DNA of 58,922 bases, counting the filler, from Dugesia japonica (lineage: Eukaryota): the NCBI GenBank assembly GCA_001938525.1. It is 5 parts of 5 records of this genome, joined end to end, with 100 filler letters (N's around TTAATTAATTAA, not from the genome) between each part and the next. Parts side by side here need not be neighbours in the genome. Positions count along the whole stretch, not along the records: positions 1 to 9,709 come from MQRL01596187.1; 4 more parts are not named here. One strand, written 5' to 3'. The notes below the pieces were generated by a model. The model did not search any database, was not told where the DNA came from, and saw nothing but the letters and a program-made list of their open reading frames with translations. A program made the translations under genes and the position numbers. Of this stretch, positions 4,756 to 5,689 are shown one piece after another. Numbering within the stretch: position 1 is the first letter of the stretch; each line of letters starts with the position of its first letter.

Positions 4756-5689
4756 TAGACATTGTGATCCCAGGATACCGGTCGATTTCTGAACCCGAAA
4801 ATCCCAGGATTGTAATTAATTTTAAATTTACGGGGGTTGAGCATCAGCTGTGTTTTGCCCATGTGTGTTGTTGTGTATAAAACTGGATCTTTGCAAACGG
4901 CCAAATTCGAACTGTTAGAAGGAACTGAATATAATGACCCACCTTTTGAGAAAATCCATAAACTTAAGTAAATGACGTAAACTTTGTTTCCACATATTTG
5001 GTCCTTAATGCGAAGGATGATCTTGTTTGCCATCACATAGTAATTTAAAATTAGGAGGTAAATTTTTTGAGTTTTTACAATTTTTTTCGTCATTCGGCAA
5101 TTTTTTTTTACTATTATAAAAAATATATTCCTGAAGAAGACAATTGTCGAAAATTTGAATATCTATAAAANNNNNNNNNNTTTTTGATCGAAGCTTTTTC
5201 TTTATTTTAATGAAATCTCAAATGCGATCAATGGTTAATTGTCCAACAATTATTCTCACAATAATTGTAATATAATAATAAGTAGGTTAAATTATCATAC
5301 CTGAAATGTATATGCACATTTTCAAAATGAAAAAGGATAAATAATAGATTATGGATCTCATAAATATAATTCTGTTTTATTATTATTTACTTTTGTTATG
5401 TATAAATATAAAATATAAAAAACTTTCTTTTTGAATTACAAATGTATTTAGTATTTAGGAAGATTTTTTATTTTGTGCTCGTTAAAAATTTTATGAAGAT
5501 TAGATAGACATATAGGCAATATATTTATCCATATAGGCATTGTATAACAGAGCTGTTCATTGTATAATACAATTTGTATATATACTATATATCTTTCTAC
5601 GTTAAAGCGAATTCATAATAATTAATTTTTTTAAATAATCCCAGGATTATTAAATGTTTGATCCCAAAATCACGGGATTGCAATCCCTA
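4756..5689 (+). mobile_element. Non-autonomous hAT-like TIR element nested in the mariner
   Basis: Left end tagacattgtgatcccaggat is a degenerate inverse of the right end atcacgggattgcaatcccta. Subterminal atcccaggat repeats are present, and internal GVEHQLCFAH resembles the hAT CxxH motif. Confidence 0.65.
5125..5162 (+). ncRNA. Minimal type I hammerhead ribozyme motif (Penelope pLTR type)
   Basis: atattc-CTGAAGA-a-gac aatt gtc-GAAA-attt-gaatat. It has a 6-bp stem I, intact CUGANGA and GAAA boxes, stem II, and a palindromic AAUU in place of stem III. The shared pLTR-like tail follows to ~5270. Confidence 0.7.

What the first reader, a model, noticed from the sequence alone, without database searches (positions are those of the whole stretch)
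5125..5270. Dispersed Penelope-type repeat family carrying a minimal hammerhead ribozyme
A ~150-bp repeat recurs at 3204, 3170(-), 5125, 19936(-), 24914(-), 37058(-) and 43890, in four of the five blocks. Its consensus is ttc-CTGACGA-a-gac-aaa-gtc-GAAA-tatc-gaa plus a tail (ttttgatcgaagctttt...ttttaatgaa...cgatcaat...caacaattattctc). This is a type I hammerhead core with an extra A after A9, a short stem II, a palindromic 4-nt stem III (AUAU or AAUU, which pairs only as a dimer) and an AUC cleavage site. Minimal dimer-dependent HHRs are established hallmarks of Penelope-like pLTRs and retrozymes. Stem pairing is kept despite sequence changes (atattc/gaatat vs aattc/gaatt; loop aatt vs aaa). 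At this density, and mostly without an attached ORF, it may be an abundant non-autonomous ribozyme-bearing retroelement in this genome (inference).
Basis: partly seen in the sequence, partly recalled or inferred. Interest (0 to 1): 0.75.

Follow-up and report, generated by a model that had tools for sequence, protein, structure and literature searches.

The report
Planarian Penelope-type hammerhead repeat relics
The repeat is real and very abundant in this flatworm's DNA, and it carries an unusually small motif with the layout of a self-cutting 'hammerhead' RNA; it is likely the broken-off tail end of a Penelope-like jumping gene, a kind already described, and only one copy in this window still has a complete motif.

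Summary
The repeat is real. The family is very large: 21,535 and 20,128 contig records of two public runs match a 561-bp stretch holding four copies. Their majority letters restore G12 (87%) and C17 (57%) at copy 3204, and a second subfamily carries the core of copy 5125. The layout matches the minimal hammerheads of Penelope-like pLTRs (Cervera 2014): extra base after A9, G10.1-C11.1, palindromic helix III. Helix II (9-10 nt) is shorter than in any of that paper's 56 examples. Copies also show Penelope-like insertion traits: fixed 3' end, optional ~45-nt tail, head-to-head inverted pairs. No Penelope RT/endonuclease ORF was found, RNA reads show no pile-up of ends, and covariation among window copies does not beat shuffles. 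The host is probably Dugesia japonica or a close relative. No tandem array was seen, so not a retrozyme. This scan reported the same kind in three other genomes. Verdict: new member of a known kind.

The parts
5125..5162 (+). Complete minimal type I hammerhead motif (copy A, subfamily 2): stem I 5125-5130/5157-5162, C3 at 5131, extra A 5138, stem II 5139-5141/5146-5148, GAAA 5149-5152, palindromic helix III AAUU 5152-5155, predicted cut after 5156 (UUU)
   Evidence: subfamily core confirmed by loose-end consensus of 142, 157 and 213 records
5163..5271 (+). 3' part of copy A: A-rich spacer (10 N), conserved TTTTGATCGAAGCTT box, short end near 5218, ~45-nt tail to 5262 and a few bases beyond
3196..3341 (+). 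Copy B (subfamily 1): full hammerhead layout with G12>A (3226) and A at position 17 (3233), full tail
   Evidence: majority letters G (87%) and C (57%) at these places in run X2
3150..3195 (-).
   Evidence: (hairpin z -5.2)
2886..2997 (-).
3006..3078 (+). Copy C+ (subfamily 2): right arm of the inverted pair, ends at the short end without the tail
   Evidence: (2940-3080 folds as one hairpin, z -12.8)
3344..3396 (+). 53-nt extension beyond the tail of copy B, 85% like the extension beyond copy C-; possibly the rare continuation of the element past its usual 3' end
   Evidence: summed contig depth 229-539 at 3354-3410 against 0.8-1.5 million on the tail
2813..2865 (-). The same 53-nt extension beyond the tail of copy C-
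   Evidence: E 2e-13
24801..24945 (-). Copy E (subfamily 1): CUGA missing, rest of motif with AUC, full tail, followed by (ATT)n
19880..19952 (-). Copy D (subfamily 1): starts in stem II, AUC, ends at the short end; exact duplicate at 20335-20407
43882..43951 (+). Copy G: decayed, core boxes kept, stem II broken
   Evidence: 12.8 bits; 0 of 40 shuffles
37055..37081 (-). Copy F: 5' half only, A6>G; borderline
   Evidence: 8.8 bits; 1 of 40 shuffles
16553..16620 (-).
   Evidence: (11.9 bits; 0 of 40 shuffles)

Best explanation
These are dispersed copies of a very abundant planarian repeat whose majority sequence holds a complete minimal hammerhead motif, and they are likely the 5'-truncated 3' ends (pLTRs) of a Penelope-like retrotransposon. 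Inferred mechanism, by analogy with the Anolis Poseidon element: the element's RT/GIY-YIG protein would nick AT-rich DNA and start reverse transcription at one of two internal sites about 80 and 125-140 nt downstream of stem II, giving the short end and the ~45-nt tail. Copying would usually stop at or just past the hammerhead, and often leave a second inverted fragment head-to-head. In the parent RNA the hammerhead is predicted to cut weakly after position 17, needing a second copy (palindromic helix III) or the element's protein. Most genomic copies would be dead relics. Shown: repeat, abundance, intact majority core, two subfamilies, end structure, inverted pairs. Inferred: the PLE parent, the copying route and any cleavage.
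For: Motif: copy A fits the published metazoan min-HHR consensus and all four emergent traits listed by Cervera 2014 are present or partly so: extra base after A9, G10.1-C11.1, palindromic 15.2-16.2, families with compensatory changes. Chance: 0 of 300 shuffles give such a hit with stem I of 5 bp or more. Family: 21,535 and 20,128 contig records laid; G12 restored in 87% and C17 in 57% of summed depth; among the 40 differences shown for core positions 3209-3233 only the loop (3222), G12 and position 17 appear; subfamily 2 core seen as loose-end consensus in two contig runs and one RNA run. Two both-sided changes separate the subfamilies (helix III UA/AU; stem I position 5). Ends: sharp 3' end (399 and 373 contigs, 543 RNA reads leave the repeat behind 3339), a second shorter end behind 3078 (141, 123, 102 records, mixed with copies that continue); the C pair has the tail on one arm only, as described for PLEs. 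Head-to-head inverted junctions occur twice in the window and as opposite-strand joints at 3196-3204 in contigs of both runs. A PLE-linked min-HHR is listed for the planarian Schmidtea.
Against: No PLE ORF found: Pfam on 12 + 85 of the window's ORF fragments gave Gypsy, mariner and pogo-type domains but no PLE RT or GIY-YIG; a PLE motif scan found none; the stop-read-through frame beside copy D hit nothing. No upstream sequence is shared among five copies beyond one AT-rich E-F match. No place where many RNA molecules begin or end (table 6). Covariation among six window copies does not exceed shuffles (74 of 500), stem II never covaries, and 48 further differences were not shown. For copy A the double-hammerhead fold scores -5.0 kcal/mol against -21.8 for an inactive dimer and -5.3 per monomer. 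Rfam hammerhead models do not hit.
Confidence: 0.78

Rival explanations
1. A self-standing non-autonomous SINE-like element of about 150 nt, derived from a PLE pLTR, transcribed on its own and copied in trans by a PLE protein.
For: All window copies begin within about 15 nt upstream of the core or inside it, with no shared upstream sequence; very high abundance with no ORF nearby; non-autonomous PLE derivatives are described. RNA run X22 shows a 1.6-1.8:1 strand bias that follows the repeat's orientation in three differently oriented copies (library strandedness unknown).
Against: 93-95% of RNA reads run on into unlike sequence and only 2,337 of 13.6 million reads match, which looks like read-through in host transcripts; heavy 5' truncation is normal for PLEs; a rare 3' extension shared by two subfamilies suggests a longer parent.
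Confidence: 0.14
2. A non-LTR retrozyme: tandem units cut out by hammerheads and copied through circular RNA.
For: Type I hammerhead, small size, low GC; solo monomers of retrozymes exist.
Against: No tandem head-to-tail copies in the window; the motif is minimal, not canonical with loop 1/loop 2 contacts as in retrozymes; copies start upstream of the cut site rather than at it; few RNA reads (oligo-dT would miss circles).
Confidence: 0.04
3. The hammerhead look is a chance feature of an AT-rich DNA-transposon or foldback repeat.
For: Inverted pairs form long hairpins; Rfam gives no hammerhead hit; window covariation is not significant.
Against: The full descriptor is met by chance in 0-1 of 300 shuffles; the family majority is closer to the catalytic consensus than the window copy, and two subfamilies keep the core while loop and helix III change; copies have one fixed end and no terminal inverted repeats as a unit.
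Confidence: 0.04

Closest known systems
Minimal hammerheads (min-HHR) in pLTRs of metazoan Penelope-like elements (Cervera & de la Pena 2014, PMC4209133; read parts 1-2 of 4 of the text and parts 1-2 of 3 of the supplement)
   Same: Type I order, CUGANGA plus one extra base, G10.1-C11.1, palindromic 15.2-16.2 with no loop 3, short stem I, AU-rich flanks, mostly single dispersed motifs, some close pairs on opposite strands, several families per genome.
   Different: Helix II plus loop is 9-10 nt (3 bp); the shortest among the 56 rows of Fig. S3 is 11 nt. The sequence differs from the Schmidtea row (5-bp helix II). No PLE ORF shown here. Abundance may exceed the 4,000-9,000 motifs reported for coelacanth and Xenopus, but my estimate is rough.
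Poseidon element PAc of Anolis carolinensis (Frangieh et al. 2024, PMC11167929; read parts 1-2 of 4)
   Same: Hammerhead followed by two 3' ends that bound an optional tail; AT-rich insertion context; no RNA-seq reads ending at the cut site.
   Different: In PAc the ORF starts at stem II and the protein was assayed; here no conserved reading frame runs through the tail in both subfamilies and nothing was assayed.
EN+ PLE insertion structure (Craig et al. 2021, PMC8557442; passages read)
   Same: 5' truncation, inverted 5'-truncated copy next to the main copy, tail on one end only, microsatellite neighbours.
   Different: Tail here about 45 nt rather than 30-40; clade cannot be assigned without an ORF.
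Animal non-LTR retrozymes (Cervera & de la Pena 2020, PMC7229834, passages; Li et al. bioRxiv 10.64898/2026.07.22.740005, part 1 and passages)
   Same: Small, low-GC repeat with a type I hammerhead, related to PLE pLTRs.
   Different: Retrozymes are tandem, mostly canonical hammerheads and highly expressed circles; this family is dispersed or inverted, minimal and rare in RNA.

Membership tests
PLE min-HHR (Cervera 2014) | Core boxes CUGANGA and GAAA...UH in type I order with stems I and II | tested here: met
   Copy A; family majority
PLE min-HHR (Cervera 2014) | Extra nucleotide between 9 and 10.1; G10.1-C11.1 pair | tested here: met
   A5138; G5139-C5148; same in copy B
PLE min-HHR (Cervera 2014) | Palindromic 15.2-16.2, no stable helix III | tested here: met
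   AAUU in copy A, AUAU in five others; 6 of 6 rows paired at both positions
PLE min-HHR (Cervera 2014) | Consensus families with compensatory changes | tested here: inconclusive
   2 of 11 pairs change on both sides; 47 of 500 shuffles reach that; read tables suggest more but do not link the two sides on one molecule
PLE min-HHR (Cervera 2014) | Self-cleavage as dimer or with protein | not testable with these tools
   No pile-up of RNA ends in two RNA runs; ordinary libraries are poor for this and PAc showed none either
Penelope-like element | ORF with telomerase-like RT and GIY-YIG endonuclease joined to the pLTR | tested here: inconclusive
   None in the window; no genome held to look for full-length copies
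Penelope-like element | Fixed 3' end with optional tail; variable 5' truncation | tested here: met
   Ends behind 3339 and 3078
Penelope-like element | Inverted 5'-truncated copy adjacent to the main copy | tested here: met
   Pairs at 2886-3078 and 3150-3341; opposite-strand joints in contigs
Penelope-like element | Partial tandem pLTR-ORF-pLTR arrangement | not testable with these tools
   No genome; only a 53-nt shared extension hints at a longer parent
Non-LTR retrozyme | Head-to-tail tandem units each with a hammerhead | tested here: not met
   None in this window; genome not examined
Non-LTR retrozyme | Abundant small circular RNA | not testable with these tools
   69 of 10.5 million and 2,337 of 13.6 million reads; oligo-dT misses circles
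Rfam hammerhead families | Covariance-model match | tested here: not met
   No hammerhead family at E up to 10 for the window or for 5105-5170

The most novel reading that the evidence does not exclude
A self-standing ~150-nt retroposon built around the smallest natural hammerhead yet listed (25 nt from C3 to the cut, 3-bp helix II with a 3-nt loop), amplified to tens of thousands of copies in a planarian by a Penelope protein in trans, with two subfamilies that kept the catalytic core, so that many host transcripts carry a latent, dimer- or protein-activated cut site.
Probability: 0.14. Interest if true: 0.5.

Novelty: new member of a known kind. Interest (0 to 1): 0.2.

Why it matters
What hammerheads do for Penelope-like elements is still open (processing aid or passenger; PMC8557442, PMC11167929). 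A very large family with two subfamilies in a model regenerating flatworm would allow a clean test of selection on core versus spacer, and its 3-bp helix II marks the small end of natural hammerheads. It does not add a new kind of system: the motif, its pLTR setting and mass dispersal are published, including for a planarian.

Tried and rejected
No whole genome is held, so no genome-wide BLAST, model or ORF-linkage test. Rfam: no hammerhead match; the mir-3149/MIR2599 hits at 37334-37448 are below gathering scores and reflect a long hairpin. Pattern scans for the motif found 0 loci in viral contigs and 0 in metagenome contigs twice. No RNA holder was listed for 4600-9000 (no evidence either way). 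The region beside copy D (19942-20196) faintly recalled a PLE N-terminus (recalled, no call), but read with X at stops it hit nothing: rejected as evidence. A whole-window read-through Pfam scan was not obtained; 97 ORF fragments were scanned instead (12 + 85; the 85 were picked from 372 fragments of 40 aa or more, plus two beside copy D already in that set), so a badly decayed PLE fragment could be missed. A conserved reading frame through the tail is open in copy B but not in subfamily 2 or copy E: not used. The Atlas search of 3675-3779 gave only low-recognition coiled-coil hits. Summed contig depth was not taken as a copy number: short overlapping contigs can inflate it up to about 30-fold. 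Literature searches for hammerhead + planarian, hammerhead ribozyme + Schmidtea, Penelope + Dugesia japonica + genome, Penelope + planarian + transposable elements + repeat, and Dugesia japonica + ribozyme (listings only, except passages of PMC6431247) showed no description of this family; Repbase/Dfam and subscription papers were not searchable, and the bioRxiv supplement and part 3 of the 2014 supplement were not seen.

Full report
Setting. The window is AT-rich eukaryotic DNA (GC 15-32% in 2-kb steps) with 28 N-runs of 10 or more. One exon (15123-15245) is identical over 41 of 41 residues to a TIA1-like protein named as Dugesia japonica, so the host is probably that planarian or a close relative. 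The rest is mostly transposon debris (Gypsy, mariner, pogo-type). No whole genome is held.

Observation. The repeat is real. I find about ten pieces: A 5125(+), B 3204(+), an inverted partial copy at 3150-3195(-), an inverted pair 2886-2997(-)/3006-3078(+), D 19936(-) with an exact duplicate at 20335-20407, E 24914(-), G 43890(+), a tail fragment at 16553-16620(-) and the borderline F 37058(-). Only A has a complete hammerhead: 6-bp stem I, CUGAAGA, an extra A, 3-bp stem II with a 4-nt loop, GAAA, palindromic AAUU and U17. A descriptor search finds this single hit; 1 of 300 shuffled windows gave any hit and 0 of 300 one with stem I of 5 bp or more. The minimum-energy fold of A is exactly stems I and II, but it is weak (z -1.3, 28 of 200 shuffles as good).

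Family evidence. Laying four public runs of the same organism label on 2860-3420 at 80% likeness placed 21,535 and 20,128 contig records from the two contig runs. At copy B the majority restores G12 (3226 A>G: 552,808 of 635,417 depth in X2; 539,872 of 616,170 in X3) and C17 (3233 A>C: 57% and 58%); loop position 3222 is split about evenly A/G. These are among the 40 differences shown; 48 more were not shown. A loose end before 3015 gives, in 142 and 157 contigs and 213 RNA reads, a second subfamily with the core of copy A and a 4-nt loop. So window copies are mostly decayed, while both subfamily majorities carry a complete core. Between subfamilies helix III changes UA to AU and stem I position 5 changes on both sides; on six window rows this is not more than shuffles give (covariation 74 of 500), though every slid register pairs far worse (26-42% against 79%). 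Copy number cannot be read from summed depth (up to 1.5 million against single-contig depths of 4-15, inflated by overlapping short contigs). At least several hundred distinct flanks leave the repeat at one position, 4,086 and 3,792 contigs lie only partly on it, and the window holds about one piece per 6 kb; thousands to tens of thousands of copies is my rough inference.

Ends and arrangement. The 3' end is sharp (399 and 373 contigs and 543 RNA reads leave behind 3339), and a second end about 45 nt earlier is seen in copies D and C+ and behind 3078. The C pair carries the tail on one arm only. Head-to-head inverted pairs occur twice within 600 bp, and opposite-strand joints at 3196-3204 occur in a few contigs of both runs. 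All window copies start within about 15 nt upstream of the core or inside it, with no shared upstream sequence apart from one AT-rich match between E and F flanks. B and C-, of different subfamilies, share a 53-nt extension beyond the tail (85%, E 2e-13) whose summed depth is 229-539, some thousandfold below the tail; it may be the rare continuation into the parent element or a duplicated target, which I could not separate. Inverted 5' copies, an optional one-sided tail and microsatellite neighbours are described traits of EN+ Penelope-like elements (PMC8557442, passages); in the Anolis element the tail lies between two internal RT start sites downstream of the hammerhead (PMC11167929).

RNA. 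Runs X21 and X22 gave 69 of 10.5 million and 2,337 of 13.6 million reads; 93% and 95% run on into unlike sequence, and no place has a pile of ends. X22 shows a 1.6-1.8:1 strand bias that flips with the orientation of three copies; strandedness of the library is unknown and X21 does not show it clearly. This fits read-through of scattered copies and gives no sign of cleavage; the Anolis study also found no reads at its cut site although the ribozyme cut in vitro with protein.

What is missing. No PLE RT or GIY-YIG domain was found in 97 scanned ORF fragments, in a motif scan of all six frames, or in the read-through frame beside D. Folding gives no support for a spontaneous active dimer of A: -5.0 kcal/mol for the double hammerhead against -21.8 for a dimer paired through its palindromic stem II, a palindrome peculiar to this copy. 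Rfam does not recognise the motif.

Comparison. The motif matches the min-HHR consensus and traits of Cervera and de la Pena 2014, which lists a PLE-linked min-HHR in Schmidtea with a different sequence. Its helix II plus loop (9-10 nt) is shorter than any of the 56 rows of their Fig. S3 (shortest 11 nt, counted by eye and 23 text). It works like a PLE pLTR hammerhead; membership in a PLE is likely but lacks the ORF test. It fails the tandem test for retrozymes in this window. Five literature searches showed no description of this family (repeat libraries not searchable). Three earlier reports of this scan describe the same kind in other genomes; I did not test them and they are not support.

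Verdict. New member of a known kind; interest 0.2. Best explanation 0.78; self-standing SINE-like derivative 0.14; retrozyme 0.04; chance 0.04.

Noticed in passing
window 37334-37448: Near-perfect 55-bp-arm hairpin whose arms each contain the family's TTTCATCGAAG box facing outward; possibly a third inverted pair of an internally deleted copy. Gives sub-threshold miRNA hits in Rfam.
   Followed up: partly
window 15123-15245 (+): Exon of a TIA1-like RNA-binding protein, 41 of 41 residues identical to a Dugesia japonica protein.
   Followed up: yes
window 48773-49654 (-): 293-aa stop-to-stop frame with no Pfam match and no homologue among 999 candidates.
   Followed up: partly
window 52196-54694 (+) and 77-361 (-): Fragments of Ty3/Gypsy-type retrotransposons (SCAN, zinc knuckle, integrase H2C2, RT-RNase H domains).
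   Followed up: no
window 37963-38253, 34951-35184, 28514-29285, 39935-40222: Mariner, pogo/Tc5-type and DDE_3 transposase remnants.
   Followed up: no
window 56566-57189 (-): Broken frames that resemble Polinton-type polymerase-associated regions (recalled resemblance; no Pfam hit).
   Followed up: no
window 4011-4607: AT-rich minisatellite with nested periods 55/72/127 around a CCGATCAAAA motif, between copies B and A.
   Followed up: no
window 19807-20086/20262-20541, 44194-44399/44507-44712, 45318-45617/46111-46410: Exact 200-300-nt duplicates beside N-runs, probably assembly overlaps.
   Followed up: no
window 599-1198 (+) and 3490-3780 (+): Coiled-coil-like reading frames without a confident family; the second follows the 53-nt extension of copy B.
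   Followed up: partly
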